This document shows positions 6,352 through 47,288 of a stretch of DNA of 64,000 nt, one piece after another; the stretch's first letter is position 1; the number at the start of each line of letters is the position of its first letter. Both the position numbers and the translations under genes were made by a program. The notes below the pieces were generated by a model. The model was not told the origin of the DNA and ran no database searches. It worked only from the letters and a program-made list of their open reading frames with translations. Origin of the DNA: Eledone cirrhosa (Eukaryota); NCBI GenBank assembly GCA_964016885.1, contig OZ024764.1, forward strand, positions 27,962,001 through 28,026,000, given 5' to 3'.

Positions 6352-6526
6352 CTGGTTGGAGTAATAACAGTCTTGTTTATGTATATACACACATATATAC
6401 ATATATATATATATATATATATGTTTGTTCTTGTATTTCTATAGAAAAGGTAAAGAAAAGAAGAATGCTCTATGTATTGTACAGAGCTATTTAATTACAT
6501 AATAAACAACAGAATATAATTATTCC

Positions 6527-8881
6527 ATGCAAATAGACTTAGAATGGAAAACATTCAGACAGAGAAGAATGGATAATGAGCGTCGTAAGAGAAATTGGCC
6601 AACAATTAATATTAATGGAAATCTAGAAGAATTTCATATTAGTGATATGAATGTTTCGTGTGATCACTGTGAAGCTTTGAAATTTAGAAATGAAAATTGT
6701 AACTGTTGTAATAAAGGAAAGGTTGTGTTGCCTCCATTGCAAATATACCCCGAGAGACTGAGAAATCTCTTTGAAAGAGGCCAGGAAGCAGTTGATTTCA
6801 CAGAAACGTCTGCAATTAAAACTACATTTATTTCACTTCATTTGGTGTTACCACCCAGCAGAGGCCCGTATAGCTTTCATATTCAGGGTCAAACATATCA
6901 CTACACCCCCATCTCTGTAACCTGCAGAAAATACACCACAATATGGCCAGTTATATATTATTGATGGGAACGAAGGTGTGTAGCACAGATTGGAAGTACA
7001 ACCAAATAATTGTTTCTGGCACAAGGCCAGCAATTACTGGTACTTTATTCTATCGACCTCATAAGGATGAAAACAAAGTCAACCTTGGAGGGATTTGAAC
7101 CCAGAACGTAAAGGGCCATAACCCTATGCTGCAAAGCATGGTGTCTGACGCTCTACCGATACTGCCAATCCACCGCCCTAGTACCAACAAATAATGAGTG
7201 CTCACCACAAAAAATGGCTATGATAAGAGAGGTGTTGCGTGATGTAATCCATATGTCGAAGTGTACAATACAATGCATGGCATCAAACAGCAAAGTGCAA
7301 GAAGAGAAAATTGTTGTGTACAGAACTGTAAATTAAGATTTAGAAGAGGATCAGATATGAGCTGCTATAATTTACCAACTAGTAATGATAGCTGTTGTTT
7401 TGTGGGGGATTGAGGGCAGACCACCTGTACAAAGAGATATTATCATCTTTCCTAAAGACCATCCTCCTCAGAATATATCACATAATTCATGCCACTTGGA
7501 CCTCATGACCAACCCATAATGGTGAATTTTGGTGGCATAGTGACATGGAGAGGAATGCAGGACCTGTGTTTGCAATAGACTGACAATGCAGGAGTATTAC
7601 ATATACAGTATAGCATATAGAGGAGGATTTAGTGCGATATATAGGGCAGGTAAATTATTTTAGCAGTATTTAGTGGAAGCCTATATGAAAGTAGGGGGAT
7701 GCAGGCTTCAATATTTGAGGAACAATCAAGCCCAATTGTGAGTGGATGAGTATAATGGTTTAATGAATTATCTAAACAGATGATAACACTGAGCCTTAAG
7801 AAATGAAGACAAGATAAGAAACAGAGATGACATTGACAGAATCGTGTCAGCAGAAATACCTGCATTGGAAGATGATCAAGTACTACATGAGTAGGTTTAA
7901 AAGTTTATGATACACGGGCCATGTGGTTCTGGAAACCCTTTTCCCCCATTTATACAAAATGGATTTTTCCAAAAGAACTATCCAAAAACCTACAGAAGGG
8001 AAACATTATTGAACCTAAATGGATACCCAGAGTACAGGAGGTGCAAGACAGGAACTGCAGTGTAAATTGGATGACATTCAGTAGATAACAGGAATGTTGT
8101 GCCATTTAATGCCTTTTTGCTTAAGAAATATTGTGCATATATTAATGTTGAAGTTTGCACTTCTGTAAAAAGTGTCAAGTACCTCTTTAAATATGTTACA
8201 TGGGGCATGATTGTACATCTATAGAAGTAACGAATAATGCATTACCTAATGAGGCTCAGAACCAACACAACCATGATGAAATAAGAACCTATCTTTGTTG
8301 CAGGTATGTGTCTCAGCCAGAAGCAGTGTCGTGTCTGTCCGAATTTAAGCTTCATGGTACATCACATACATTATACAGCCTAGCCACACACCTGGAGAAC
8401 AAACAGAGTTTACTTTCAAAGAGGCAATGCTCAGGTTGTGGTAGAAATGCAGGGACCCTTGCTGCCTGGTTCAAGCTAAATGAACTTGCTTACACCTTCT
8501 GGGATGCCGCCTCACAAACTCCAATTAAAAGCAGGATCAATAATAATGCTTCTATGGAATATTTCAATCCAGAACAGATTATGTAATGGCACAAGATTAG
8601 AAGTAGTAGAACTGCATAAACATTTTATCAAAGCTTCTCATATCTATGGTCCTTTGATGGGCAGGTGTGTTTTGATCCCAAGACTGAAGTTAGCCCCCAG
8701 TGGTGCCAACATCCTTTTTACTTTGGAAAGACCCCAGTTTCCATTAAGACTGTCATATGCCATGACAATCAACAAGAACCATGGTCAAATACATGATAAA
8801 GTGGGTCTGTTCCTCCCTGAGCAAGTATTTAACCCTGGACAATTGTATGTTGCTTTTTCAAGAGTTCACAGACAGATGTAA
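6527..8881 (+). mobile_element. Helitron Rep/Hel relic, copy 1 (frameshifted, internally deleted, SINE-interrupted)
   Basis: Motifs in order: CDHCEALKF..CCNKGKVVLPP, QQYLVEAYMKV, DDIDRIVSAEIP, HGPCG, NGYPEYRR, INVEVC..VKYLFKYV (Rep motif 3), and the Pif1 C-terminus LCNGTRL..QFPLRLSYAMTINK..GQLYVAFSRV. Multiple stops and frameshifts. Confidence 0.93.
7011..7178 (-). mobile_element. tRNA-derived SINE inserted in the Helitron
   Basis: The minus strand begins GGGCGGTGGATTGGCAGTATCGGTAGAGCG with a GGTTCAAATCC B-box. Flanked by a degenerate ~16-bp direct repeat (AGTACAACCAAATAAT 6995-7010 / AGTACCAACAAATAAT 7180-7195). Same family as 54469-54688. Confidence 0.85.
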
Positions 8882-9454
8882 AAATTAATCCTAGCAAACC
8901 CCCACCACTCCTACAACTGTTAGCTGTTAGCCCACCCCCAGCATCACCCAACCTCCGTTCTAGTCCCACCATTAGAACCAATGCTGCTTACCCTGCCTCT
9001 TTTACTAGTTCACTCCGTCGCTCGAATTTCAAAGCTGGCCCTCTACACTTGGTCTTTGCCAGCTCACCACCTGGTTGTGCTCTCTGTGTCCGCACTAGCC
9101 GGTACCTAAACACAATAAAATGTCACCTGTGCTACCAAAACTACCACAGGAACTCTGTCGGCATCAGCAAGGCTCAAGCCGAAAGGCTTCAATACTAGAC
9201 CTGTAATCAGGGCCACTTTACCTCCGACGACCAGCTTTCTACCGAGTGTGTGTTGATGGAGGGGACATGAGACCAGCAAAGTCCTAGGAGTAGAGACTAG
9301 TAAATAATAAACGGTCCTAGCTATGTTAAGAATATATATAATAAAAATGTTCTATACATTTAAGAAGACAAGAGAAATAAATATTTACCTCTTTCATGTA
9401 GGTAATATAGCGGTGTTATAAAAGTATAATAACTGATGCGGGTAGTTTGTTTCA

Positions 9455-10096
9455 AACTATAACACATATAACTCTATCAGTGAAGCCCTTTAGTATAGGT
9501 CAACTGGGAAACTATAACACATATAACCCTATCAGTGAAGTCCTTTAGTATAGGTCAACTGGGAAACTATAACACATATAACCCTATCAGTGAAGTCCTT
9601 TAGTATAGGTCAACTGGGAAACTATAACACATATAACCCTATCAGTGAAGTCCTTTAGTATAGGTCAACTGGGAAACTATAACACATATAACCCTATCAG
9701 TGAAGTCCTTTAGTATAGGTCAACTGGGAAACTATAACACATATAACCCTATCAGTGAAGCCCTCTGGGAAACTATAACACATATAACTCTATCAGTGAA
9801 GCCCTTTAGTATAGGTCAACTGGGAAACTATAACACATATAACCCTATCAGTGAAGTCCTTTAGTATAGGTCAACTGGGAAACTATAACACATATAACCC
9901 TATCAGTGAAGTCCTTTAGTATAGGTCAACTGGGAAATTATAACACATATAACCCTATCAGTGAAGTCCTTTAGTATAGGTCAACTGGGAAACTATAACA
10001 CATATAACCCTATCAGTGAAGTCCTTTAGTATAGGTCAACTGGGAAACTATAACACATATAACCCTATCAGTGAAGTCCTTTAGTATAGGTCAACT
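9455..10096 (+). repeat. 55-bp minisatellite (12 units, one shortened to 41 bp)
   Basis: AACTATAACACATATAACCCTATCAGTGAAGTCCTTTAGTATAGGTCAACTGGGA in direct tandem with no spacers. Confidence 0.95.
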
Positions 10097-10149
10097 AACA
10101 GAAGTATTACGGGTATGGAAAAAATTCTAAATAAGCCTACAACAGTCAT

Positions 10150-10224
10150 TGCGGGCCACTCTGACTGGTCAGGTGGGCTCGATTGTGGCCCGCGGGCCGC
10201 CTGTTGTACGCCCCTCCTTTAGAC
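10150..10224 (+). mobile_element. hAT (Charlie/SPIN-like) 3' terminus fragment
   Basis: GCGGGCC..GGCCCGCGGGCCGCCTGTTGTACGCCCCT followed by CTTTAGAC. This resembles Charlie-type subterminal motifs and the NTCTAGAN target. Confidence 0.55.
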
Positions 10225-10266
10225 AGAATATCTATCACTGTTAAGTAATAATGTGATCTGTCGGCC

Positions 10267-10458
10267 AACTACATTTTCCAGCCTGTGGCGTTTGGGGGAG
10301 TCGGGATACTGACTGCGAGATTCCTATCTTCACTGGCGGCTAGCCTGACGAAGGTGACTGGTGAAGCTCGTGAGGGCACTTGGTTGTTCCAGCTCCTCAG
10401 CCTCGCCATCGCCCGAGGTAACGCTGCAGACGTGCTGGCTTGCCTAAAAAATCATTAG
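10267..10458 (+). mobile_element. CRE-like non-LTR retrotransposon, C-terminus of the restriction-like endonuclease (RLE); also at 25287-25478 and 40581-40772
   Basis: Translates as NYIFQPVAFG..FLSSLAASLTKVTGEAREGTWLFQLLSLAIARGNAADVLAC*, matching the CRE RLE tail FxPxAxET..TGDxRE..LxQRLSxAIQRGNA. Confidence 0.75.
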
Positions 10459-10542
10459 AGAGGTTTCCCAGTGCTCCTCGCGATACTGTTAACTTTTGAT
10501 CTAGTAGCAGCTCGTTTGTCCACCCCTTTCGCCTGCCTTTGG

Positions 10543-10725
10543 TTGTATGTCGTCCTAGATGTGTGTATTACCTGCTTGTGTGTTGTATGTGGTCCTAGAT
10601 GTGTTATTACCTGCTTATGTGGTCCTAGATGTATGTATTACCTGCTGGTGTGTTGTATGTGGTCCCAGATGTGTGGATTACCTGTTTTTGTGTTGTATGT
10701 GGTCCCAAATGTGTGTGCTACCCGC
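10543..10725 (+). repeat. ~40-bp degenerate minisatellite (~5 units)
   Basis: TGTATGTGGTCCTAGATGTGTGTATTACCTGCTTGTGTGT repeated; also present in units 2 and 3. Confidence 0.85.
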
Positions 10726-11450
10726 TTCTGTGATTTGTTTCTTCTTCCTCTCTTCCGAGAAACAATCGTGTATTTTTTAAATCTATTCCATGCGTTAAGT
10801 AATTAGCAGCAACAACAAACTGATTTTCAGTTGTAAAAAGAATCTTTAAACCTTCACCATTTACATTAACACATACCATACGTTGTCCCAGCCACAAATA
10901 AAGAGTAAAAAAAACTTACTTTGCGGTTAAATTCTTCACAATTAAAAGAAAAATATTTCTAACACGTTTCTAGACAACACCAAGTTTACACCTTCAATAT
11001 CCGGTAAAAGTAAAAACAAATTCTGGAGACATTTAACGAAACGAAACTATGTAAAGAAAAACGAAAATTAAACGAAGACAAGTAGTAAATTTTAATTTTT
11101 ATTAAATAAAATACCAGTAATTCACTGCAGTAGATTTAATCAACTTTACTCACTCTGCACGAAAGAAGAAAAAAATTCCTGACTTAGTGCTTAATATATA
11201 GAGAGGGGGAGAGTTTGGTGTTACTTCATATAGAGAGGGGTATTGGAAGAGAGTGCCGTGTAGTAGATATAGAGAGGGAGAGAGTGTGTGCTAATTGATA
11301 TAAAGAGGGGGATTTGCACCCCCCCCCCGCCGCCTAGAAAAATTCTGAAATGCTTCGACCTCCCTGTACATATATATATATATATAGTATACACACACAG
11401 ACATTTTTATGTATATATTATATATATAGTAAATAAATGTGTGTGTGTAT

Positions 11451-11490
11451 CAGTGGTCGCCAAACTTTTCTGTTCCACACCCCTCCTCTA
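11451..11490 (+). mobile_element. hAT-like 5' TIR fragment
   Basis: CAGTGGTC(G/C)CCAAACTTTT is a typical Charlie-type terminus; no partner end was identified. Confidence 0.5.
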
Positions 11491-11500
11491 AAATATGTTT

Positions 11501-12622
11501 ATGTTCCCCTTTAATATAAAAACAATCCGAGTATTCTGAAAGTATTATTACTGTAATATAAAGTAGAAACCCTTTATTTAAACAAAGCTACGATGCAGCG
11601 ATGATCAAAACAAACTTCTCGTAGGTGCTGCCAAGCGGGGAAAAGTGGATGTATAATGATGATGATATATATATATATGCCCCACCCTTGCAAACAGGGA
11701 AAAGCAGACGTAAAATGAAAATGATGATATATATATAGATAGATAGATATGTATTTATACTTATACGTCATGGTGGCTACAGGTGCCAAGAGGAAGAAGC
11801 CGGTCAAATCCTCTGATATTTGTTTATCTTCCTTTCCTTTGTATATATATATATAGTATGTGTGTATGAAGATGTATGACCCCCTAGCAAGCCAAACTAC
11901 AGTTACTCCCCAACATGGAGAGCAAATTAAAACATTACCTGTTAGAGAGGAACGTGAAATGAATTGTTAGTGAACTACCGGTGTAACAGTAATTATGTTA
12001 CCGGTGTAACTATTTCTGTTTACCTTATTTTTAAATGACACTCCTATATTAGTTTAGTGACCTTTCAATTCAAATAAATTCTTGATGATGATTGAACTCG
12101 CATCGGAGTAGCCCAACGCCTTGGCCTCCGCGTGTGTGAGCCACATAAATGCTCTCAACGACATAGTGAGAAGAAGCCTGGACGCAGCTGAATTTCCATC
12201 TCAACTGGAGCCAGCAGGCCTAGGCCGCGGAGATGGCAAGCACCGCGAGGGAATCACCCTCTTCCCATTCGAAGGAGGTAGATCCACAAACCCCAGCATC
12301 GCTGCCCGTCTCGCAGATGAACATAAAATAAACAAATTCCGGTGTTTGTCCTGGAGCCTCTTCTAAGCACCAGCCGCCGTCGAGACCCCGGGCCAACTTG
12401 GACCCATTACAGCCGAGCTCCTCCGCAACATCGCAGTGTCTGTGGCCCGTCTGAGGATGGAGTCCCACGAGGTTGGATGCCTGTTGCAGCAGGTGTCACT
12501 GTCCTTACATATATATACGTAAATGTTCCCTTGACTGCTATTTCTAGCATATATTAATAGACACTTTAGAAACAGCAGCTAAAAATCAAGAAACAACAGT
12601 GTGTGTCTGTATATATATACAC

Positions 12623-12673
<51 letters not shown>

Positions 12674-12757
12674 AGCCAAAGACACGCACACACGAACATA
12701 CACATACACACAGGTGTATGTCTGCGTGTATGTATATATATGTGTGTGTCTTTTCGT

Positions 12758-12824
<67 letters not shown>

Positions 12825-13441
12825 GTCAGTGATCCCCCTCGCAACCTTTAATTAAACAAACCTGCGATGAGGCGATGATCAAAATAAACACCAAAGTATA
12901 AACAAACAGCCCATAGGTGCTGCCGGATACACGATAACATGTGTAGACGAAGTAAAACTTTTATTACTATAATATAAAGTAGAAACCCTATATTTAAACA
13001 AAGCTGCGATGCAGCGATGATCAAAACAAACTTCAAATAACATGTGTATACGAAGTGTATCTGGAAGCTTGGTCGTATTATATGACTTTCAAATTGACCC
13101 CTATTATATTCAAATTATCCCCTGTGGGGCGTGCACCCCACGTTGAGAATCCCTCATAAATAAAAATATGTGAGTGTGTTGCTATGACTGCTATTTCTAG
13201 CAGGTTTACTGCAGTCCTGTAGACGCACAACAAAAACCGGAAGTGGCAGCCATTAAAAAACTTTGGCTTAAAATCAGCCAAAAGATTTTCAATAATAGTA
13301 AAATTTTATTTTTGACAAGGACGATAACTTTTGTCTTACTTAATCGCAAAAATCGAGGCAAAAATTTTGCGGGTGTGCAGTTTACACGCTAAAATAAACC
13401 TGCTAGAAATAGCAGTTATAGCAACTCACATATATTTATAT

Positions 13442-13477
<36 letters not shown>

Positions 13478-14558
13478 CCAAACACACACCCTTATATATG
13501 TACGTGTGTGTGTGTTGACCGCTATATATATATATAGCAGCCAAACACATACACAGACACACATATATATATATATACATGTGTGTGTATATGTGTGTGT
13601 CCTCCTCTCGTCTATGGCTGTTATTTTTACATTGTCCTTTTTCTTATTTTTCTCGGGATTTGCCCGGATTCGAACATGCGACCACCTATTTACAATATAG
13701 AATCTTTACAGCTTTACTGACTTTTAAGTAATCCAAGTTGTAACCCCGGATTTAGTAGTGTTTAATTTATTTTGAAGTATTTTATTATTGGCCTTAGTTA
13801 GACGATCGTCCAAGACCATGCTGGGGCATATATATATATATGTATATATATGTGTGTGTGTGTGTGTATGCTGGGGCATATATATATAGGTGTGTGTGTG
13901 TATATATATATATGTGTGTGTGTGTCCTTTCTGTTATTCGCTGCTATTTCTAAAGTGTCAATATATATATCATATATATATATATATGATATATAAATAT
14001 ATGTAAGTGAGTTGCTATGACTGCTATTTCTAGCAGGTTTATTTTTAGCGTGTAAACTGCACACCCTCAAAATTTTTGCCTCGACTTTTGCGATTAAGTA
14101 AGACAAAAGTTATCGTCCTTGTCAAAAATAAAATTTTACTATTATTGAAAATCTTTTGGCTGATTTTAAGCCAAAGTTTTTTAATGGCTGCCACTTCCGG
14201 TTTTTGTTGTGCGTCTACAGGACTGCAGTAAACCTGCTAGAAATAGCAGTCATAGCAACACACTCACATATATTTATTTATGAGGGATTCTCAACGTGGG
14301 GTGCACGCCCCACAGCGGATAATTTGAATATAATAGGGGTCAATTTGAAAGTCATATAATACGACCCAACTCCCTGTTACACTTCGTATACACATGTTAT
14401 CGTGTATCTGGCAGCACCTGCGAGAAGTTTGTTTACATTTTGGGGTTTGCTTTGATGATCGCTGCATCGCAGCTTTGTTTAAATAAAGGGTTTCTACTTT
14501 ATATTACAGTAATAACACTTTTACAAGACTCGGATTGTTTTTATATTAAAGGGGACAT
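11501..14558. mobile_element. ~3 kb fold-back (long inverted repeat) element, left arm interrupted; family unassigned
   Basis: 13036-13460 is the reverse complement of ~13970-14400 (near-identical ORFs at 13078- and 14156+). 12850-13035 and 11501-11632 match 14395-14558 in reverse. Outer ends are ATGTTCCCCTTTAA and TTAAAGGGGACAT. Confidence 0.8.
12081..12500 (+). mobile_element. Second CRE-like RLE-domain fragment; also at ~27095-27514 and ~42389-42808
   Basis: RIGVAQRLGLRVCEPH / ALNDIVRRSLDAAEFPSQLEPAGLGRGDGKH(R/P)EGITLFPF / AARLADEHKINKF / AVETPG. This matches the CRE consensus LNDII.RAL..A..PS.LEP.GL.R.DGKRPDG.TL.PW with internal deletions. Confidence 0.8.
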
Positions 14559-15038
14559 GTTTTTTAAACTCTGAACTCAGCACTTTTCTGTTGTTCTCCG
14601 GGATTCTAGCAAAGTATAAAAATATATATATATATATAGCTGGCAGTCAACCTCAGACTCGAAAAAGCCGCCGTTAATCGTGATCGTTGGGGTTATAATT
14701 AGACTAAAAGTGCTTCCACTGGGCACCATTAGCTGATTGTGATCATTGGAGAATTCTTTCTGCGCTGAAAGAGCCTAGGACTAAAAGATATATATATAGA
14801 TGTCGAAACGGCAGTAGCACAGCCGTTGGGGTCCTGAATATTTTCACATCTATATATGTGTGTGTATTCTGCGACATTTATAATTACATAAGCAAGCATA
14901 TTTGAATAACAAAATTTGAGGTTTAAATACTTTATTTTTTACCAATAACATAGAGAAAGGCATGAACAACACCACATGTTAATTACTTTAATATTGAAAG
15001 TAGGGTTATAAAGATTAAAAAAGCAGATTTTTTAATCT

Positions 15039-15110
15039 TTCATGGTGGTCTGGTGGGTAATACCAGAGATGGTGGTAGTCCTGGTTTCGGTTTCAATCCC
15101 GGTCATGGGT
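15039..15110 (+). pseudogene. Degenerate tRNA-Glu-like sequence (pseudo-tRNA or SINE head); also at ~30247 and ~45390
   Basis: CATGGTGGTCTGGTGG (A-box) and GGTTTCAATCCCGGTCATGG (B-box/acceptor) resemble the ends of metazoan tRNA-Glu. The anticodon arm is not canonical. Confidence 0.55.
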
Positions 15111-15185
15111 TACATATAAGGTCTCATTTTTTTTTTTCTTTCTTTCAGTTTTCTTCTTATCTCTAGATATAAATATATATACATA

Positions 15186-15292
15186 AGGTAATTTGGTAGA
15201 ATTGTTAGAACATCAGATAGAATTCTTTGCAGTATTTTTCCAGTTCTTTACTCTGAGTTCAACTTTACCTTTCTTCCATTCGGTGTCGATAA
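15186..15292 (+). mobile_element. Old, truncated copy of the tRNA-derived SINE family
   Basis: TTGGTAGAATTGTTAGAACATCAGATAGAA..GAGTTCAACTTTACCTTTC..GTCGATAA aligns by eye to the SINE at 54469. Confidence 0.55.
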
Positions 15293-15410
15293 GTCTTGAA
15301 TATGTCTAACGTAGCAATAATTGGAGCTACTTAACCAAGTTTTCCCAACCTAGTCGATGTCACCTACTGGTTGGCGATTTAAACTGTTGGCTGGGACAAT
15401 GACCAACTAA

Positions 15411-15658
15411 TCAGTCAGATTCGAACTCACTATGTCTGGCATATATTTTATATTTTATATTTGAATGACGTTCTGTAAGTAACCTGGTGGCTTAGATGGC
15501 AATACTGCTCGAATAGATGGCTTCTATTATGAAGTTATAAGTTCATTCCCTATCCAGGATTGTAGAATTAATTTTATTTAGTTATTATTTAATCAATTGT
15601 TTTAACAAACAAATTATATCTATAAAACGCCAAATATAGTGAGTTCAAATCTGACTGA
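15411..15658. mobile_element. MITE-like element with ~30-bp TIRs
   Basis: TCAGTCAGATTCGAACTCACTATGTCTGGC (15411-15440) vs GCCAAATATAGTGAGTTCAAATCTGACTGA (15629-15658), 3 mismatches. Repeated in each copy of this segment. Confidence 0.65.
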
Positions 15659-15982
15659 CATGCATGGTATATATTTATGTTTCATTATACAACGACACAA
15701 TACACAGGAACTTATAAAGATATGTATATATTGTCCAGGAGTTTCGAGTTTAGTGGGAATTGGTACAACTCTCAATTGGAGCTAGTTCCTGCAAGATCAG
15801 CATAAATAATGTTATACCTTTTCATGAAATCTTGCACACCCGATGTTTTATACATGATTATTTAAAGGTGAACAAAAACCAAAGAACATTGTGCAGCATT
15901 TCTCAACCTTTCTACCCATGTCGATCTCTTGAAATAGTTTTTATGTCTCAGGGATGCCCTGCATAAAATATACTTTTTCTAT

Positions 15983-16020
15983 CTCTAGAGCAGTGGTTCC
16001 CAAATCGTGTGCTGCGAGAT
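15983..16020 (+). mobile_element. hAT/Charlie-like 5' end with typical target site
   Basis: CTCTAGAG followed by CAGTGGTTCCCAAA. Confidence 0.55.
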
Positions 16021-16578
16021 GAAACAAGATGAGCTGCAAAAGACTAAGATTAAGTTTTAAGATGTGAAAAATATAAAACTGAAATTTCATATAAAAGTTC
16101 AAATATAGCTACAGCCACAAACCTAGGCTCCACACCCCGCAATGCAAAGGATAGTAAGATAGTACCAAGGCCTGACTCACCTCTTCCACTCCATTGAGAC
16201 CTCTGCCATACTTGGTCCCTGTACTGCTGATTTCCTCCATAAAGTCGGGAGGAAAGACGACAGGAGCCTCATGAGGAGGGGCGACTATTGTAGCAGGTGT
16301 CTCTGGCCTTGCTCCGAGGTAACGCTTTTACGTTTCTTCCACAGGTTGCGGCTGAGGGACCACTTAGACTGGGGTGAAGTGTCTGTCCCTCCCCCGACTT
16401 CTTACTTCTTTTTTTTTCGCATTTTCATTTTCTTTTCTCTTCTTGCTTATCTCTGCTATACCACGGCATCAAAAACATATATGATATGTGTATGTATGGT
16501 ATAGGTGTATTTATATTTAGGATAGTTATCAAAGGTAAATAGACTGGTTGAAGCAATAACAGTCTTGTTTATGTATAT

Positions 16579-16610
<32 letters not shown>

Positions 16611-16716
16611 CTGTTTGTTCTTGTATTTCCATAGAAAAGGTAAAGAAAAGAAGAATGCTCTATGTATTGTACAGAGCTATTTAATTACATAATAAACAAC
16701 AGAATATAATTATTCC

Positions 16717-16969
16717 ATGCAAATAGACTTAGACTGGAAAACATTCAGACAGAGAAGAATGGATAATGAGCGTCGTAAGAGAAATTGGCCAACAATTAAT
16801 ATTAATGGAAATGTAGAAGGATTTCATATTAGTGATATGAATGTTTCGTGTGATCACTGTGGAGCTTTGAAATTTAGAAATGAAAATTGTAACTGTTGTA
16901 ATAAAGGAAAGGTTGTGTTGCCACCATTGCAAATATACCCTGAGAGACTGAGAAATCTCTTTGAAAGAG
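16717..16969 (+). mobile_element. Truncated Helitron N-terminal fragment ending in a snap-back hairpin; also at 31929-32181
   Basis: Same CDHCGALKF..CCNKGKV motif as 6527. Similarity stops after GAAAGAG at 16969. Confidence 0.9.
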
Positions 16970-17701
16970 ATTTCTCAGTCTCTCAGGGTATATATTCCCG
17001 CCGTTGAAATAAAAATTTTAATAGAAAAACGGCGGGAATATATGTTACAACCCAATCTATATATATTTAGGTTGTAACATATATTCCCGCCGTTGAAATA
17101 AAAATTTTAATAGAAAAACGGCGGGAATATATGTTACAGCCCAATCTATATATATTTGGGTTTTAACATATATTCCCGCCGTTGAAATAAACATTTTAAT
17201 AGAAAAACGGCGGGAATATATGTTACAACCCAATCTACATATATTTGGGTTGTAACATATATTCCCGCCGTTGAAATAAAAATTTTAATAGAAAAACGGC
17301 GGGAATATATGTTACAACCCAATCTACATATATTTGGGTTGTAACATATATTCCCGCCGTTGAAATAAAAATTTTAACATAAAAACGGCGGGAATATATA
17401 TTACAACCCAAACATATATAGGTTGGGTTGTAACATATATTCCCGCCGTTTTTCTATTAAAATTTTTATTTCAACGGCGGGAATATATGTTACAACCCCA
17501 AAATATGTAGCTTGGATTGTAACATATATTCCCGCCGTTTTTCTATTAAAATTTTTATTTCAACGGCGGGAATATATGTTACAACTCAAATATATATAGA
17601 TTGGGTTGTAACATATATTCCCGCCGTTTTTCTATTAAAATTTTTATTTCACCGGCAGGAATATGTTACAACCCAAATATATATATATTGAGTTGTAACA
17701 T
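16933..17701. repeat. Perfect 30-bp snap-back hairpin plus 89-bp double-hairpin tandem array with an internal orientation flip (5 forward + 3 reverse units)
   Basis: The unit is ATATTCCCGCCGTT..AACGGCGGGAATAT plus ATGTTACAACCCAA..TTGGGTTGTAACAT. Forward units start at ~16992, 17081, 17170, 17259, 17348; reverse units at ~17437, 17526, 17615. Confidence 0.93.
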
Positions 17702-19160: not shown

Positions 19161-19217
<57 letters not shown>

Positions 19218-19570
19218 TGTTCTTGTATTTCCATAGAAAAGGTAAAGAAAAGAAGAATGCTCTATGTATTGTACAGAGCTATTTAATTACATAATAAACA
19301 ACAGAATATAATTATTCCATGCAAATAGACTTAGAATGGAAAACATTCAGACAGAGAAGAATGGATAATGAGCGTCGTAAGAGAAATTGGCCAACAATTA
19401 ATATTAATGGAAATGTAGAAGAATTTCATATTAGTGATATGAATGTTTCGTGTGATCACTGTGGAGCTTTGAAATTTAGAAATGAAAATTGTAACTGTTG
19501 TAATAAAGGAAAGGTAGTGTTGCCACCATTGCAAATATACCCTGAGAGACTGAGAAATCTCTTTGAAAGA
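17699..19570 (+). repeat. Direct duplicate of 15104-16969 inside the macro-unit (also ~32821-34692 vs ~30311-32181)
   Basis: The sequence restarts at CATGGGTTACATATAAGGTCTC. ORFs 16271/18853 and 16717/19319 are near-identical. Confidence 0.93.
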
Positions 19571-27636: not shown

Positions 27637-27703
<67 letters not shown>

Positions 27704-27787
27704 AGCCAAAGACACGCACACACGAACATACACATACACACAGGTGTATGTCTGCGTGTATGTATATATATGTGTGTGTCTTTTCGT

Positions 27788-27828
<41 letters not shown>

Positions 27829-31788: not shown

Positions 31789-31822
<34 letters not shown>

Positions 31823-34282: not shown

Positions 34283-34339
<57 letters not shown>

Positions 34340-34440
34340 TGTTCTTGTATTTCCATAGAAAAGGTAAAGAAAAGAAGAATGCTCTATGTATTGTACAGAG
34401 CTATTTAATTACATAATAAACAACAGAATATAATTATTCC

Positions 34441-37400: not shown

Positions 37401-39414
37401 GATGAAACTCTGTCATGTAATGTTATGGACATATCTGCCCCTGGGGCTAATAATTGTCATGTAATGTTATGGTCATCTCTGCCCCTGTGGTTAATAATTC
37501 TGTCATGTAATGTTATGGTCATCTCTGCACCTGTGGCTAATAAATCTGTCATGTAATGTTATGGTCATCTCTGCCCTTGTGGCTAATAATTATGTCATGT
37601 AATGTTATGGTCATCTCTGCCCCTGTGGCTAATAATTCTGTCATGTAATGTTATGGACATCTCTGCCCCTGTGGCTAATAATTCTGACATGTAATGTTAT
37701 GGACATCTCTGCCCCGGTGGCTAATAATTCTGACATGTAATGTTATGGACATCTCTGCCCCTGTGGCTAATAATTCTGACATGTAATGTTATGGACATTG
37801 CTATCTTGTTTCATCTCAAACAGCAAAGTGCAAGAAGAGAAAATTGTCGTGTACAGAACTGTGAATTAAGATTTAGAAGAGGATCAGATATGAGCTGCTC
37901 TAATTTACCAACTAGTAATGATAGCTGTTGTTTTGTGGGGGATTGAGGGCACACCACCTGTACAAAGAGATATTATCATCTTTCCTAAAGACCATCCTCC
38001 TCAGAAAATACCACATAATTCATGCCACTTGGACCTCATGACCGACCGATAATGGTGAATTTTGGTGGCATAGTGCCATGGAGAGGAATGTAGGACCTGT
38101 GTTTGCAATAGACTGACAATGCAGGAGTATTACATATACTGTATAGCATATAGAGGAGGATTTAGTGCGATATATAGGGCAGGTAAATTATTTTAGCAGT
38201 ATTTAGTGGATGCCTATATGAAAGTAGAGGGATGCAGGCTTCAATATTTGAGGAACAATCAAGCCCAATTGTGAGTGGATGAGTATAATGGTTTAATGAA
38301 TTATCTAAACAGATGATAACACTGAGCCTTAAAAAATGAAGACAAGATAAGAAACAGAGAAGACATTGACAGAATCGTGTCAGCAGAAATACCTGCATTG
38401 GAAGATGATCCAGTACTACATGAGCAGGTTTAAAAGTTTATGATCCACAGACCATGTGGTTCTGGAAACCCTTTTCCCCCATTTATACAAAATGGATTTT
38501 TCAAAAAGAACTATCCAAAAACCTACAGAAGGGAAACATTATTGAACCTAAATAGATACCCAGAGTACAGGAGGTGCAAGACAGGAACTGCAGTGTAAAT
38601 TGGATGACATTCAGTAGATAACAGGAATGTTGTGCCATTTAATGCCTTTTTGCTTAAGAAATATTGTGCACATATTAATGTTGAAGTTTGCGCTTCTGTA
38701 AAAAGTGTCAAGTACCTCTTTAAATATGTTACATGGGGCATGATTGTACATCTATAGAAGTAACAAATAATGCATTACCTAATGAGGCTCAGAACCAACA
38801 CAACCATGATGAAATAAGAACCTATCTTTGTTGCAGGTATGTGTCTCAGCCAGAAGCAGTGTCGTGTCTCTCGGAATTTAAGCTTCATGGTACATCACAT
38901 ACAGTATACAGCCTAGCCACACACCTGGAGAACAAACAGAGTTTACTTTCAAAGAGGCAATGCTCAGGTTGTGGTAGAAATGCAGGGACCCTTGCTGCCT
39001 GGTTCAAGCTAAATGAACTTGCTTACACCTTCTGGGATGCCGCCTCACAAACTCCAATTATAAGCAGGATCAATAATAATGCTTCTATGGAATATTTCAA
39101 TCCAGAACAGATTATGTAATGGCACAAGATTAGAAGTAGTAGAACTGCATAAACATTTTATCAAAGCTTCTCATATCTATGGTCCTTTGATGGGCAGGTG
39201 TGTTTTGATCCCAAGACTGAAGTTATCCCCCAGTGGTGCCAACATCCCTTTTACTTTGGAAAGACCCCAGTTTCCATTAAGACTGTCATATGCCATGACA
39301 ATCAACAAGAACCATGGTCAAATACATGATAAAGTGGGTCTGTTCCTCCCTGAGCAAGTATTTAACCCTGGACAATTGTATGTTGCTTTTTCAAGAGTTC
39401 ACAGACAGATGTAA
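34441..39414 (+). mobile_element. Helitron relic, copy 3, split by the same insertion
   Basis: ORFs at 34441, 38733 and 39079 match copy 2. Break at 35200/37819. Confidence 0.92.
35201..37818 (-). repeat. Second copy of the inverted-satellite insertion
   Basis: Same junctions and content as 20079-22690. Confidence 0.92.
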
Positions 39415-39987
39415 AAATTAATCCTAGCAAACCCCCACCACTCCTACAACTGTTAGCTGTTAGCCCACCCCCAGCACCACCCAACCTCCGTTCTAGTCCC
39501 ACCGTTAGAACCAATGCTGCTTACCCTGCCTCTTTTACTAGTTCACTCCGTCGCTCGAATTTCAAAGCTGGCCCTCTACACTTGGTCGTTGCCAGCTCAC
39601 CACCTGGTTGTGCTCTCTGTGTCCGCACTAGCCGGTACCTAAACACAATAAAATGTCACCTGTGCTACCAAAACTACCACAGGAACTCTGTCGGCATCAG
39701 AAAGGCTCAAGCCGAAAGGCTTCAATACTAGACCTGTAATCAGGGCCACTGTACCTCCGACGACCAGCTTTCTACCGAGTGTGTGTTGATGGAGGGGACA
39801 TGAGACCAGCAAAGTCCTAGGAGTAGAGACTAGTAAATAATAAACGGTCCTAGCTATGTTAAGAATATATATAAGAAAAATGTTCTATACATTTAAGAAG
39901 ACAAGAGAAATAAATATTTACCTCTTTCATGTAGGTAATATAGCGGTGTTATAAAAGTATAATAACTGATGCAGGTAGTTTGTTTCA

Positions 39988-40409
39988 AACTATAACACAT
40001 ATAACTCTATCAGTGAAGCCCTTTAGTATAGGTCAACTGGGAAACTATAACACATATAACCCTATCAGTGAAGTCCTTTAGCATAGGTCAACTGGGAAAC
40101 GATAACACACATAACCCTATCAGTGAAGTCCTTTAGTATAGGTCAACTGGGAAACTATAACACATATAACCCTATCAGTGAAGTCCTTTAGTATAGGTCA
40201 ACTGGGAAACTATAACACATATAACCCTATCAGTGAAGCCCTCTGGGAAACTATAACACATATAACTCTATCAGTGAAGCCCTTTAGTATAGGTCAACTG
40301 GGAAACTATAACACATATAACCCTATCAGTGAAGTCCTTTAGTATAGGTCAACTGGGAAATTATAACACATATAACCCTATCAGTGAAGTCCTTTAGTAT
40401 AGGTCAACT
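39988..40409 (+). repeat. 55-bp minisatellite, 8 units
   Basis: Same monomer as 9455. Confidence 0.93.
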
Positions 40410-41798
40410 AACAGAAGTATTACGGGTATGGAAAAAATTCTAAATAAGCCTACAACAGTCATTGCGGGCCACTCTGACTGGTCAGGTGGGCTCGATTGTG
40501 GCCCCGCGGGCCGCCTGTTGCACGCCCCTCCTTTAGACAGAATATCTATCACTGTTAAGTAATACTGTGATCTGTCGGCCAACTACATTTTCCAGCCTGT
40601 GGCGTTTGGGGGAGTCGGGATACTGACTGCGAGATTCCTATCTTCACTGGCGGCTAGCCTGACGAAGGTGACTGGTGAAGCTCGTGAGGGCACTTGGTTG
40701 TTCCAGCTCCTCAGCCTCGCCATCGCCCGAGGTAACGCTGCAGACGTGCTGGCTTGCCTAAAAAATCATTAGAGAGGTTTCCCAGTGCTCCTCGCGATAC
40801 TGTTATCTTTTGCTCTAGTAGCAGCTCGTTTGTCCACCCCTTTCGCCTGCCTTTGGTTGTATGTCGTCCTAGATGTGTGTATTACCTGCTTGTGTGTTGT
40901 ATGTGGTCCTAGATGTGTGTATTACCTGCTTATGTGGTCCTAGATGTATGTATTACCTGCTGGTGTGTTGTATGTGGTCCCAGATGTGTGCATTACCTGT
41001 TTTTGTGTTGTATGTGGTCCCAAATGTGTGTGCTACCCGCTTCTGTGATTTGTTTTGTTTCTTCTTTCTCTCTTCCGAGAAACAATCCTGTATTTTTTAA
41101 TCTATTCCATGCGTTAAGTAATTAGCAGCAACAACAAACTGATTTTCAGTTGTAAAAAGAATCTTTAAACCTTCACCATTTACATTAACACATACCATAC
41201 GTTGTCCCAGCCACAAATAAACAGTAAAAAAAACTTACTTTGCGGTTAAATTCTTCACAATTAAAAGAAAAATATTTCTAACACGTTTCTAGACAACACC
41301 AAGTTTACACCTTCAATATCCGGTAAAAGTAAAAACAAATTCTGGAGACATTTAACGAAACGAAACTATGTAAAGAAAAACGAAAATTAAACGAAGACAA
41401 ATAGTAAATTTTAATTTTTATTAAATAAAATACCAGTAATTCACTGCAGTAGATTTAATCAACTTTACTCTCTCTGCACGAAAGAAGAAAAAAATTCCTG
41501 ACTTAGTGCTTAATATATAGAGAGGGGGAGAGTTTGGTGTTACTTCATATAGAGAGGGGTATTGGAAGAGATTGCCGTGTAGTAGATATAGAGAGGGAGA
41601 GAGTGTGTGCTAATTGATATAAAGAGGGGGATTTGCACCCCCCCCCGCCTAGAAAAATTCTGAAATGCTTCGACCTCCCTGTACATATATATATATATAT
41701 AGTATACACACACAGACATATATATAGTAAATAAATGTGTGTGTGTATCAGTGGTCCCCAAACTTTTCTGTTCCACACCCCTCCTCTAAAATATGTTT

Positions 41799-42930
41799 AT
41801 GTTCCCCTTTAATATAAAAACAATCCGAGTATTCTGAAAGTATTATTACTGTAATATAAAGTAGAAACCCTTTATTTAAACAAAGCTACGATGCAGCGAT
41901 GATCAAAACAAACTTCTCGTAGGTGCTGCCAAGCGGGGAAAAGTGGATGTATAATGATGATGATATATATATATATGCCCCACCCTTGCAAACAGGGAAA
42001 AGCAGACGTAAAATGAAAATGATGATATATATATAGATAGATAGATATGTATTTATACTTATACGTCATGGTGGCTACAGGTGCCAAGAGGAAGAAGCCG
42101 GTCAAATCCTCTGATATTTGTTTATCTTCCTTTCCTTTGTATATATATATATAGTATGTGTGTGTGTGTGTGTATGAAGATGTATGACCCCCTAGCAAGC
42201 CAAACTACAGTTACTCCCCAACATGGAGAGCAAATTAAAACATTACCTGTTAGAGAGGAACGTGAAATGAATTGTTAGTGAACTACCGGTGTAACAGTAA
42301 TTATGTTACCGGTGTAACTATTTCTGTTTACCTTATTTTTAAATGACACTCCTATATTAGTTTAGTGACCTTTCAATTCAAATAAATTCTTGATGATGAT
42401 TGAACTCGCATCGGAGTAGCCCAACGCCTTGGCCTCCGCGTGTGTGAGCCACATAAATGTTCTCAACGACATAGTGAGAAGAAGCCTGGACGCAGCTGAA
42501 TTTCCATCTCAACTGGAGTCAGCAGGCCTAGGCCGCGGAGATGGCAAGCACCCCGAGGGAATCACCCTCTTCCCATTCGAAGGAGGTAGATCCACAAACC
42601 CCAGCATCGCTGCCCGTTTCGCAGATGAACATAAAATAAACAAATTCCGGTGTTTGTCCTGGAGCCTCTTCTAAGCACCAGCCGCCGTCGAGACCCCGGG
42701 CCAACTTGGACCCATTACAGCCGAGCTCCTCCGCAACATCGCAGTGTCTGTGGCCCGTCTGAGGATGGAGTCCCACGAGGTTGGATGCCTGTTGCAGCAG
42801 GTGTCACTGTCCTTACATATATATACGTAAATGTTCCCTTGACTGCTATTTCTAGCATATATTAATAGACACTTTAGAAACAGCAGCTAAAAATCAAGAA
42901 ACAACAGTGTGTGTCTGTATATATATACAC

Positions 42931-43018
<88 letters not shown>

Positions 43019-44894
43019 CAGCCAAAGACACGCACACACGCACATACACATACACACAGGTGTATGTCTGCGTGTATGTATATATATATGTGTGTCTTTT
43101 CGTTCTCTCTCTCTCTCTCTCTATATATATATTTATATATATATATATCAGTGATCCCCCTCGCAACCTTTAATTAAACAAACCTGCGATGAGGCGATGA
43201 TCAAAATAAACACCAAAGTATAAACAAACAGCCCATAGGTGCTGCCGGATACACGATAACATGTGTAGACGAAGTAAAACTTTTATTACTGTAATATAAA
43301 GTAGAAACCCTATATTTAAACAAAGCTGCGATGCAGCGATGATCAAAACAAACTTCAAATAACATGTGTATACGAAGTGTATCTGGAAGCTTGGTCGTAT
43401 TATATGACTTTCAAATTGACCCCTATTATATTCAAATTATCCCCTGTGGGGCGTGCACCCCACGTTGAGAATCCCTCATAAATAAAAATATGTGAGTGTG
43501 TTGCTATGACTGCTATTTCTAGCAGGTTTACTGCAGTCCTGTAGACGCACAACAAAAACCGGAAGTGGCAGCCATTAAAAAACTTTGGCTTAAAATCAGC
43601 CAAAAGATTTTCAATAATAGTAAAATTTTATTTTTGACAAGGACGATAACTTTTGTCTTACTTAATCGCAAAAATCGAGGCAAAAATTTTGCGGGTGTGC
43701 AGTTTACACGCTAAAATAAACCTGCTAGAAATAGCAGTCATAGCAACTCACATATATTTATATATCATATATATATATATATATATATCAGCCAAACACA
43801 CACACTTATATATGTACGTGTGTGTGTGTTGACCGCTATATATATATATAGCAGCCAAACACATACACAGACACACATATATATATATATACATGTGTGT
43901 GTATATGTGTGTGTTTGTGTGTGTGTCCTCCTCTCGTCTATGGCTGTTATTTTTACATTGTCCTTCTTTTTGTTATTTTTCTCGGGATTTGCCCGGATTC
44001 GAACATGCGACCACCTATTTACAATATAGAATCTTTACAGCTTTACTGACTTTTAAGTAATCCAAGTTGTAACCCCGGATTTAGTAGTGTTTAATTTATT
44101 TTGAAGTATTTTATTATTGGCCTTAGTTAGACGATCGTCCAAGACCATGCTGGGGCATATATATATATGTGTGTGTGTGTGTATATATATATATATGTGT
44201 GTGTGTGCTGGGGCATATATATATATGTGTGTGTGTGTATATATATATATATGTGTGTGTCCTTTCTGTTATTCGCTGCTATTTCTAAAGTGTCAATATA
44301 TATATCATATATATATATATATGATATATAAATATATGTAAGTGAGTTGCTATGACTGCTATTTCTAGCAGGTTTATTTTTAGCGTGTAAACTGCACACC
44401 CTCAAAATTTTTGCCTCGATTTTTGCGATTAAGTAAGACAAAAGTTATCGTCCTTGTCAAAAATAAAATTTTACTATTATTGAAAATCTTTTGGCTGATT
44501 TTAAGCCAAAGTTTTTTAATGGCTGCCACTTCCGGTTTTTGTTGTGCGTCTACAGGACTGCAGTAAACCTGCTAGAAATAGCAGTCATAGCAACACACTC
44601 ACATATATTTATTTATGAGGGATTCTCAACGTGGGGTGCACGCCCCACAGGGGATAATTTGAATATAATAGGGGTCAATTTGAAAGTCATATAATACGAC
44701 CCAACTCCCTGTTACACTTCGTATACACATGTTATCGTGTATCTGGCAGCACCTGCGAGAAGTTTGTTTACATTTTGGGGTTTGCTTTGATGATCGCTGC
44801 ATCGCAGCTTTGTTTAAATAAAGGGTTTCTACTTTATATTACAGTAATAACACTTTTACAAGACTCGGATTGTTTTTATATTAAAGGGGGACAT
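41799..44894. mobile_element. Fold-back element, copy 3
   Basis: Identical ORFs at 43400- and 44491+; same outer ends. Confidence 0.8.
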
Positions 44895-47288
44895 GTTTTT
44901 TAAACTCTGAACTCAGCATCTTTCTGTTGTTCTCCGGGATTCTAGCAAAGTATAAAAATATATATATATATATATAGATATATATATATATCTGGCAGTC
45001 AACCTCAGACTCGAAAAAGCCGCCGCTAATCATGATCGTTGGGGTTATAATTAGACTAAAGTGCTTCCACTGGGCACCATTAGCTGGTTGTGATCATTGG
45101 AGAATTCTTTCTGCGCTGAAAGAGCCTAGGACTAAAAGATATATATATAGATGTCGAAACGGCAGTAGCACAGCCGTTGGGGTCCTGAATATTTTCACAT
45201 CTATATATGTGTGTGTATTCTGCGACATTTATAATTACATAAGCAAGCATATTTGAATAACAAAATTTGAGGTTTAAATACTTTATTTTTTACCAATAAC
45301 ATAGAGAAAGGCATGAACAACACGACATGTTAATTACTTTAATATTGAAAGTAGGCTTATAAATATTAAAAAAGCAGATTTTTGTATCTTTCATGGTGGT
45401 CTGGTGGGTGATACCAGAGATGGTGGTAGTCCTGGTTTCGGTTTCAATCCTGGTCATGGGTTACATATAAGGTCTCATTTTTTTTTTTTCTTTCTTTCAG
45501 TTTTCTTCTTATCTCTAGATATAAATATATATACATAAGGTAATTTGATAGAATTGTTAGAACATCAGATAGAATTCTTTGCAGTATTTTTCCAGTTCTT
45601 TACTCTGAGTTCAACTTTACCTTTCTTCCATTCGGTGTCGATAAGTCTTGAATATGTCTAACGTAGCAATAACTGGAGCTACTTAACCAAGTTTTCCCAA
45701 CCTAGTCGATGTCACCTACTGGTTGGCGATTTAAACTGTTGGCTGGGACAATGACCAACTAATCAGTCAGATTCGAACTCACTATGTCTGGCATATATTT
45801 TATATTTATATTTGAATGAAGTTCTGTAAGTAACCTGGTGGCTTAGATGGCAATACTGCTCGAATAGATGGCTTCTATTATGAAGTTATAAGTTCATTCC
45901 CTATCCAGGATTGTAGAATTAATTTTATTTAGTTATTATTTAATCAATTGTTTTAACAAACAAATTATATCTATTAAACACCAAAAATAGTGAGTTCAAA
46001 TCTGACTGACATGCATGGTATATATTTATGTTTCATTATACAGCGACACAATACACAGGAACTTATAAAGATATGTATATATTGTCCAGGAGTTTCGAGT
46101 TTAGTGGGAATTGGTACAACTCTCAATTGGAGCTAGTCCCTGCAAGATCAGCATAAATAATGTTATACCTTTTCATGAAATCTTGCACACCCGATATTTT
46201 ATACATGATTATTTAAAGGTGAACAAAAACCAAAGAACATTGAGCAGCATTTCTCAACCTTTCTACCCATGTCGATCTCTTGAAATAGTTTTTATGTCTC
46301 AGGGAAGCCCTGCATAAAATATACTTTTTCTATCTCTAGAGCAGTGGTTCCCAAATCGTGTGCTGCGAGATGAAACAAGATGAGCTGCAAAAGACTAAGA
46401 TTAAGTTTTATGATGTGAAAAATATAAAACTGAAATTTCATATAAAAGTTCAAATATAGCTACAGCCACAAACCTAGGCTCCACACCCCGCAATGCAGAG
46501 GATAGTAAGATAGTACCAAGGCCTGACTCACCTCTTCCACTCCATTGAGACCTCTGCCATACTTGGTCCCTGTACTGCTGATTTCCTCCATAAAGTCGGG
46601 AGGAAAGACGACAGGAGCCTCGTGAGGAGGGGCGACTATTGTAGCAGGTGTCTCTGGCCTTGCTCCGAGGTAACGCTTTTACGTTTCTTCCACGGGTTGC
46701 GGCTGAGGGACCACTTAGACTGGGGTGAAGTGTCTGTCCCTCCCACGACTTCATATTTCTTTCTTTTTCTCATTTTCATTTTCTTTTCTCCTCTTGCTTA
46801 TCTCTGCTATACCACGGCATCAAAAACATATATGGTATATGTATGGTATAGGTGTATTTATATTTAGGATAGTTATCGAAGGTAAATAGACTGGTTGGAG
46901 CAATAACAGTCATGTTTACGTATATATATGTGTGTGTGTGTGTAGAACAGAACAAAGGAGAGACACAAAATAAATCAGTCACTGAGGAGGTCACAGAATG
47001 TGACAAAAGAGCTTTGACAATAAACAACTATCCAGTTATTAAACCAACCAACTGGAAATTTGTAATAAATTGAAGTAAAAACCCCGGGTGTTTTTATTGG
47101 CAGCATGACCCTCCAAAGAATAACACTATATATAGTGGCATTAGCTTGGTAGAGATATCCAAGTTATAGCGCAACTCAAGTTTGTAGGACAATTTCAATA
47201 GAATTAATAAGGCCAGTTGCTACAACGGTGCCATAGCAGGAACTTATGTTTAGTTGGCTTGGTGGTAACTTATTCAATCTGCGCTGGA

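What the first reader, a model, noticed from the sequence alone, without database searches (positions are those of the whole stretch)
6352..46922. 15-kb Helitron-cored macrosatellite with a circularly permuted architecture
Seen: define A = Helitron 5' part, B = 7286-15103, C = 15104-16543, H = hairpin array and I = inverted-satellite insert. The order is then A B C A' H C A I B C A' H C A I B C. A ~10.2-kb ABC module runs head-to-tail and was elaborated into a ~15.1-kb unit. Known: Helitrons replicate by rolling circle, capture flanking DNA and can leave tandem arrays. Inference: this may be a giant non-autonomous rolling-circle cargo element, or an eccDNA-derived amplicon seeding a new macrosatellite. 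I could not find definite Helitron termini.
Basis: partly seen in the sequence, partly recalled or inferred. Interest (0 to 1): 0.7.

Follow-up and report, generated by a model that had tools for sequence, protein, structure and literature searches.

The report
Multi-chromosome macrosatellite built from dead transposons
The 15-kb repeat is real, but it is only the tail end of a megabase-scale repeat family stitched from dead transposon pieces and found on several chromosomes; it lacks both ends of its Helitron, so it most likely spread by recombination and DNA-repair copying rather than by rolling-circle jumping.

Summary
The order A B C A' H C A I B C A' H C A I B C is confirmed. It is not a new local array. 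It is the downstream edge of a ~1.5-Mb block on contig C25: 95% of the 200 kb upstream is made of the same modules. An inverted ~0.46-Mb arm and sister arrays or fragments lie on C1, C18, C20, C23, C24, C26 and C27. The copies compared descend from one dead Helitron plus LINE, SINE, inverted-repeat and satellite scraps. The family's true ends were defined from dispersed relatives: 5' A|TC in 11 of 12 copies, 3' hairpin plus CTAG. Both are absent from the amplified units. Loci start at different points, without target duplications. Junctions show microhomology, templated fillers and fold-backs, and copies group by array and position class, not by adjacency. Best reading: a composite 'transposon-graveyard' macrosatellite, likely amplified by unequal exchange and template-switch repair. 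A rolling-circle cargo element is unlikely; a circle step is not excluded. Not an assembly artefact.

The parts
1..6351 (.). CT-strand half of a ~21-kb palindromic satellite block (46-bp repeat alternating with 24-26-bp GA/CT repeat); part of the same array; fold-back centre lies ~1.5 kb upstream of the window
6352..7285 (+). A: tail of a small dispersed element and (TA)n, then (from 6554) the N-terminal part of the Helitron Rep region with a SINE-like insert at ~7004-7180; Helitron 5' end absent
7286..8887 (+). B, Helitron part: broken Rep fragment (7286-8488) fused by deletion to a Pif1 2B fragment (8489-8887)
8888..15103 (+). B, cargo: former 3' flank of the Helitron (8888-9426), 55-bp satellite (9454-10096), retroelement scraps, 434-bp inverted repeat (13037-13470 / 13961-14400)
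15104..16543 (+). C: non-coding mosaic module, copy after B
16544..16994 (+). A': truncated A ending in a perfect ~30-bp fold-back centred on a native short palindrome at ~16963
16990..17701 (.). H: 89-bp double-hairpin repeat, itself arranged as an inverted array; first 100 of 381 genome hits lie only in the C18 and C20 arrays
17699..20078 (+). C (copy after H) and A
20079..22690 (+). I: 0.9-kb module, GA satellite and 46-bp repeat inserted in the Rep region at the A|B point; no target duplication; ends in a ~19-nt inverted satellite filler; short form of the 17-24-kb palindromic blocks
22691..31753 (+). B and C, second copy
31754..46926 (+). Last 15-kb unit A' H C A I B C; its terminal C is the most diverged C of the five in the window (1.6-1.9%); array ends at a (TA)n(TG)n microsatellite
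47285..50238 (+). Single-copy, less-deleted sister of the amplified Helitron core (PIF1, Pif1 2B), with an insert at ~49412-50010 and the only Helitron 3' end in 264 kb (hairpin + CTAG at 50235-50238, followed by T)
50401..51598 (+). Original 3' flank of the Helitron, carried (whole or in part) by amplified copies; shared sequence stops at a CT minisatellite monomer that is expanded in the amplified copies

Best explanation
This is the downstream edge of a composite macrosatellite family built from one dead, terminus-less Helitron and neighbouring transposon scraps, most likely amplified by unequal exchange between copies and spread and reshuffled by template-switching repair. SHOWN: one ancestral Helitron copy underlies the amplified units compared; internal deletions removed its 3' terminator and its 5' end is gone; the module set is repeated over ~1.5 Mb plus an inverted ~0.46-Mb arm on C25 and in arrays or fragments on seven other contigs; junctions carry 1-4-bp microhomology, templated fillers or fold-backs; copies group by array and position class and recombine module by module. 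INFERRED: (1) a ~10-14-kb stretch was first duplicated in tandem, probably by ectopic recombination or a repair switch in its LINE/minisatellite segment (the first junction was not located); (2) unequal crossover and conversion expanded it into irregular ~100-kb higher-order blocks; (3) break repair copied arbitrary segments to other loci, where each array homogenised on its own; (4) hairpin-forming parts are likely break and snap-back sites that made I, A'-H-C and the large palindromes. It likely has no coding function.
For: Extent: 41 near-full copies of C-A'-H among 40 candidate stretches scored of 3,532; 245 exact C|A 30-mers, control 0; 44 exact I|B junctions on C18, C20 and C25; 94.8% of the upstream 200 kb covered by window modules. 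Single origin: Pif1-2B block differs 0.8-2.8% among 7 amplified copies and the 47-50-kb relic versus 9.3-17.6% from 7 dispersed Helitrons. No termini: 5' motif found at 12 dispersed places, 11 of 12 preceded by A and 1 by CTAG, none in an array; 0 hits in 1.19 Mb of array-region loci; 3' 235 bp found once in 264 kb and in 0 of 19 other regions. Ends: first recognised module differs at 10 of 10 dispersed loci inspected; no target duplication at the boundaries printed. Recombination signature: the 12 C23 and 3 C24 copies each form a clade; C-after-B and C-after-H within a unit differ 1.2% while position-equivalent copies 1.5 Mb apart differ 0.1%; adjacent window units differ 0.65%, more than units 95 kb apart (0.16%); edge copy most diverged. 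Junction anatomy.
Against: Amplified units lack the 3' terminator yet carry the Helitron's downstream flank, and one intact 3' end follows the array in the same orientation. This resembles read-through capture (PMC4778049, passages) and the 'many 5', one 3'' arrays of Xiong et al. 2016 (known only through PMC12628747). C18:14.96 Mb holds one 10.27-kb unit plus a ~690-bp terminal repeat, which a circle could give. Two loci (window 46926 and C18:14.86 Mb) end at the same microsatellite. My generic hairpin+CTRR scan recovered only 1 of 5 known ends, so surrogate ends are not excluded. The first tandem junction was not found. About 1.4 Mb of loci from one assembly was read, not whole arrays. 'First recognised module' uses window modules only; some flanks are other shared mosaic blocks.
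Confidence: 0.74

Rival explanations
1. Circles excised from the arrays by recombination (eccDNA) re-inserted elsewhere, with or without rolling-circle replication, and seeded the sister arrays; unequal exchange did the rest.
For: Loci open the module circle at different points. C18:14.96 Mb is one unit plus a ~690-bp direct repeat. Each locus has its own period: 8.6 kb on C23, ~15.5 kb on C24, 13 kb on C25:14.7 Mb.
Against: Several dispersed loci hold less than one unit (C25:16.98, C26, C24:5.58, C18:14.86). Flanks outside the unit are shared too: 13 kb between C25:26.45 and 29.10 Mb. Copying of arbitrary segments from an array gives the same permutation without circles. C23 units form blocks, not a star.
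Confidence: 0.15
2. A giant non-autonomous Helitron lost its terminator, read through into flanking DNA, and was amplified and moved by a RepHel transposase in trans.
For: Terminator deleted, downstream flank carried along, single 3' end after the array. Helitrons tolerate loss of the 3' end and then transduce flanks (PMC4778049, passages).
Against: The 5' end, whose deletion abolished Helraiser transposition, is absent from the units. No CTAG|TC closure was seen, loci start at different points, and junctions look like repair products.
Confidence: 0.08
3. Assembly artefact: an expanded or mis-joined repeat.
For: Exact unit order in such arrays is hard to assemble; no long reads could be laid.
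Against: Copies differ by consistent SNP haplotypes. In run X1, single contigs on C have word depth ~1,250-1,340 and the core deletion joint ~750, against 8-16 on the single-copy relic (rough, and X1 may be the assembled sample). Raw reads of two other samples (X8, X9) lie on C, A and I, and X8 shows the amplified-type 7-bp insertion in 57 of 81 reads.
Confidence: 0.03

Closest known systems
Composite satellite DNA from 'TE graveyards' (PMC12628747; passages and section 4 part 1 read)
   Same: Monomer is a patchwork of degraded pieces of several transposon classes; shuffled Helitron/satellite loci; hairpins and palindromes; expansion by unequal exchange.
   Different: Monomers here are about 2.6-15.5 kb, not a few hundred bp (typical size recalled); the ancestral locus can be traced; irregular ~100-kb higher-order blocks; multi-chromosome arrays with distinct periods.
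Rolling-circle Helitron tandem arrays (Xiong, Dooner and Du 2016; paper not held; seen only as summarised in PMC12628747)
   Same: Tandem truncated Helitrons without terminator, one 3' end downstream.
   Different: Those arrays have many 5' ends; these units have none, and most of each unit is non-Helitron DNA.
Primate core duplicons, LCR16a/NPIP (PMC7419210; abstract and outline only)
   Same: One core shared by interspersed mosaic duplication blocks with locus-specific flanks and lineage-specific expansion.
   Different: The core here has only broken transposon frames, no host gene was found, and it forms long tandem arrays.
Helentron-borne satellite arrays of the oyster Crassostrea gigas (PMC7492417, PMC8268682; search listing only)
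   Same: Mollusc Helitron-related DNA associated with satellites.
   Different: By title, those satellites ride inside non-autonomous elements; here the Helitron is passive, terminus-less cargo of a larger tandem unit.
Human macrosatellites such as D4Z4 (PMC5687341; search listing only; other details recalled)
   Same: Multi-kb tandem units on one or several chromosomes.
   Different: AT-rich, no intact gene, heterogeneous unit types.

Membership tests
Non-autonomous Helitron (rolling-circle cargo element) | 5' TC terminus of the family, inserted after A | tested here: not met
   Terminus defined at 12 dispersed places, 11 of 12 after A; 0 hits in the window plus 125 array-region loci, 1.19 Mb
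Non-autonomous Helitron (rolling-circle cargo element) | 3' hairpin + CTRR followed by T in each element | tested here: not met
   End defined from 5 of 7 relatives; present only at 50235-50238, outside the array; removed by the 49220-50400 deletion in amplified copies
Non-autonomous Helitron (rolling-circle cargo element) | Surrogate 3' terminator further downstream | tested here: inconclusive
   Generic scan gave 4 weak candidates in one unit and found only 1 of 5 real ends
Non-autonomous Helitron (rolling-circle cargo element) | Fixed start shared by independent insertions | tested here: not met
   First module differs at 10 of 10 dispersed loci inspected
Non-autonomous Helitron (rolling-circle cargo element) | Derivation from a RepHel element | tested here: met
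   Helitron_like_N (below cut-off), PIF1, Pif1_2B; 75-91% DNA identity to dispersed relatives
Macrosatellite / composite satellite DNA | Head-to-tail multi-kb units in long arrays | tested here: met
Macrosatellite / composite satellite DNA | Monomer made of fragments of several transposon types | tested here: met
   Helitron domains; RVT_1 in the older unit type; SINE-like and inverted-repeat pieces. The labels RTE and CRE are recalled resemblances, not call results
Macrosatellite / composite satellite DNA | Concerted evolution and higher-order structure | tested here: met
   Array-specific clades, position classes, diverged edge copy; irregular ~100-kb spacing of a marker variant
Macrosatellite / composite satellite DNA | Heterochromatic state; copy-number polymorphism | not testable with these tools
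   No chromatin data; RAD reads cannot give copy number
eccDNA-derived amplicon | Unit-length insertions with one circle junction; physical circles | tested here: inconclusive
   One locus fits, several are sub-unit; circles not testable
Core duplicon | Shared core in mosaic interspersed duplications | tested here: met
Core duplicon | Core carries an expressed, selected gene | tested here: inconclusive
   Only broken transposon frames found; expression could not be tested
Centromeric / pericentromeric repeat | Flanks a satellite core at each locus; CENP-A binding | tested here: inconclusive
   True on C25 (80-bp satellite between the arms); no block like it in 18 samples of 10 kb at C18, C20, C23, C24 (sparse sampling); CENP-A not testable

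The most novel reading that the evidence does not exclude
A gene-free 'core duplicon': a non-coding module whose nested fold-back structures (30-bp snap-back, 89-bp double hairpins, 1.4-kb inverted repeat, ~20-kb palindromic satellites, megabase inverted arms) cause breaks that are repaired by copying the module itself. It would then propagate across chromosomes with no transposase and no selected gene, and on C25 it would build the inverted pericentromere around a chromosome-specific 80-bp satellite.
Probability: 0.2. Interest if true: 0.68.

Novelty: new member of a known kind. Interest (0 to 1): 0.4.

Why it matters
It is an unusually traceable case of a macrosatellite born from a transposon graveyard. 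The less-deleted sister of the core survives next to the array, older and younger unit types coexist, and related organisms carry the same core junction, apparently at much lower depth. That makes the proposed graveyard-to-satellite route testable step by step. It also warns against reading every Helitron-containing tandem array as a rolling-circle product. As biology it is probably inert repeat DNA, and tandem amplification appears common in this genome (earlier AI notes, unchecked). I found no description of this family in the library: searches; an Octopus vulgaris repeat paper had 0 occurrences of 'satellite' and 'centromer' in its main text (supplement not read).

Tried and rejected
Rfam at gathering threshold: 0 hits. 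No intact long reading frame in the unit; Pfam hits are transposon fragments only. Suspected CRE-like retroelement fragments at ~10300 and ~12100 gave 0 Pfam hits in 6 frames, so that label stays a recalled resemblance. The shared stop at 51598 looked like a terminus but is the onset of a minisatellite expansion. A ~7-8-kb inverted-repeat block upstream of three arrays looked like a possible mover; it has no transposase-sized frame, only microsatellite frames. H as a dispersed MITE: first 100 of 381 hits are all inside arrays, none on C1-C17; the other 281 were not listed. The 46-bp repeat: 4,116 hits; first 100 lie in family loci except 2 at one small C7 site without other modules. Shared centromeric satellite: the 80-bp repeat has 2,804 forward and 1 reverse hit, none on C1-C24, and no similar block was seen at other arrays. 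No RNA holder listed. Earlier-findings look-ups near this place and by sequence: nothing. Xiong et al. 2016 not held.
Full report
Observation. The two long units differ at 62 of 9,585 non-satellite sites. Rfam finds nothing. The only Pfam hits in the unit are broken Helitron pieces: Pif1_2B in B and Helitron_like_N just under its cut-off, plus a sub-threshold PHD match.

Scale. The window is C25:27,962,001-28,026,000 of a 3.0-Gb assembly, probably an octopus-like mollusc (recalled SINE resemblance and earlier AI notes; not established). C-A'-H has 41 near-full copies among the 40 candidate stretches scored of 3,532: C25 26.47-27.99 Mb (+), C25 28.64-29.07 Mb (-), C18 and C20. The 200 kb upstream is 94.8% covered by window modules, in an irregular pattern that includes 17-24-kb palindromic satellite blocks. 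A 30-mer at the C|A point has 245 exact hits, control 0; the 100 listed lie on C1, C11, C18, C20, C23, C24 and C25, and the C11 hit is the motif alone. Core fragments also lie on C26 and C27. Periods differ by locus: 8.6 kb on C23, ~15.5 kb on C24, 13 kb on C25:14.7 Mb. So 6352 is not a start, and the 'permutation' is where the window cuts an array.

Origin. Right after the array, 47285-50238 holds a less-deleted Helitron relic whose 49220-50400 part has no near-identical copy among 40 candidates scored of 2,012. Its Pif1 2B block differs 1.5-2.8% from 7 amplified copies and 9.8-16.7% from 7 dispersed Helitrons. The head of the relic is more distant from the amplified copies (5.8-7.8%), though still closer than the relatives (9.1-20%). 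The amplified cores compared therefore descend from one insertion. An older unit type closes through the Helitron's 3' flank, a CT minisatellite and a LINE fragment (RVT_1, E=3.7e-20). The window type replaced this link by a 55-bp satellite and other DNA.

Helitron test. Five of 7 relatives end at the same point, in a GC-rich hairpin followed by a CTAG-like motif (exact CTAGT in 2 of the 5 relatives and in the window); in the window this is 50235-50238. That end occurs once in 264 kb and in 0 of 19 other regions. The 5' end occurs at 12 dispersed places, 11 preceded by A and one by CTAG, none in an array, and has 0 hits in 1.19 Mb of array-region loci. In Helraiser, deleting the left end abolished transposition while the right end was dispensable (PMC4778049, passages). 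The first recognised module differs at 10 of 10 dispersed loci: C1, C18:14.86, C18:14.96, C23:15.18, C24:3.81, C24:5.58, C25:14.73, C25:16.98, C26, C27. No target duplication was seen at the boundaries printed. Against my reading: the units lost the terminator and carry downstream flank, one 3' end follows the array, two loci end at the same microsatellite, and my scan for surrogate ends was weak (1 of 5 real ends).

Junctions. A'|H is a perfect ~30-bp fold-back primed at a native short palindrome. The satellite palindrome has a hairpin centre. H|C, satellite|A and satellite|C share 1-3 bp of microhomology. I|B carries an inverted filler copied from the satellite, and the deletion that removed the terminator carries a 12-nt filler. 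By established knowledge these are marks of microhomology-mediated template switching and end joining, not of a transposase.

Evolution of copies. In a tree of 52 C copies, the 12 from C23 and the 3 from C24 each form a clade, and C23 neighbours form blocks rather than a star. On C25, C-after-B and C-after-H differ 1.2% within a unit, but position-equivalent copies 1.5 Mb apart differ 0.1%. The two window units (0.65%) are less alike than units 95 kb apart (0.16%); nearest relatives change from module to module; the terminal C is the most diverged in the window. A marker variant recurs at 24-184-kb intervals on the left arm. This fits block duplication by unequal exchange with conversion, not one rolling-circle burst.

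Reality and age. In run X1, single contigs on C have word depth ~1,250-1,340 and the core deletion joint 751, against 8-16 on the relic. The tool warns that this is no copy number, and X1 may be the assembled sample. Raw RAD reads of two other samples lie on the modules. Runs of two other organisms carry the same deletion joint (depth 5.0 and 4.2), and one has a 1,165-bp contig of C with 9 differences. The composite is thus older than this assembly. Lower copy number in those organisms is suggested by long unbranched contigs, but normalisation by a dispersed SINE was too noisy to prove it.

Context. Between the two C25 arms, which point inward, lies a homogeneous 80-bp satellite starting at 28.14 Mb (3 of 3 samples at 28.2-28.4 Mb; 2,804 forward and 1 reverse hit, none on C1-C24). 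No such block was seen in 18 sparse samples at the other arrays, so a centromeric role is only a lead.

Comparison and verdict. It works like, and meets the testable features of, a composite 'TE-graveyard' satellite (PMC12628747, passages and section 4 part 1) at macrosatellite scale. It resembles a primate core duplicon in its mosaic spread (PMC7419210, abstract) but no gene was found. It fails the Helitron membership test. Odds: recombination and repair copying 0.74, eccDNA-assisted dispersal 0.15, Helitron rolling circle 0.08, artefact 0.03. New member of a known kind; interest 0.4.

Noticed in passing
G000:C25:28.14 to beyond 28.41 Mb (L133-L135): Homogeneous 80-bp satellite block of roughly 300 kb, 46% GC, almost all in one orientation and apparently specific to this contig, lying between the two inverted arms of the macrosatellite; candidate centromeric repeat.
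   Followed up: partly
window 47356-47391: Contigs of run X1 show a 36-bp 'goes back' joint at word depth ~9,600 (113 in X5): a separate, abundant tandem repeat derived from this Helitron's coding region.
   Followed up: no
window ~49412-50010: High-copy insert in the Helitron 3' region, flanked by a ~12-bp direct repeat; a third copy of that short word lies at ~50915.
   Followed up: no
L052-L053 (C25:16.974-16.982 Mb), L063-L064 (C23:15.17-15.18 Mb), L091, L098: A 7-12-kb block with ~1.1-kb inverted arms around a (TACA)n-like microsatellite sits just upstream of four arrays; no transposase frame.
   Followed up: partly
L129:6760-6930 (C7:42.17 Mb): About three isolated copies of the 46-bp repeat inside a SINE-like sequence, without other modules; possible source or stray insertion.
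   Followed up: partly
L111:6900 (C2:393.77 Mb): A precise CTAG|TC head-to-tail junction of two Helitron ends at a dispersed copy, the kind of junction expected from rolling-circle activity and not seen in the arrays.
   Followed up: no
window 50921-51400: Segment with tRNA-like motifs (by eye) in the Helitron's 3' flank; Rfam gave no hit at gathering threshold.
   Followed up: no
window 53491-54015, 55704-57790, 57970-60200: Further unrelated tandem arrays downstream: 97/179-bp repeat, (AGAC)n-derived array, TA-rich microsatellite blocks.
   Followed up: no
window 61300-62078: Two DDE endonuclease fragments (DDE_3 weak, DDE_1 E=9.8e-10), remnants of Tc1/pogo-type transposons.
   Followed up: no
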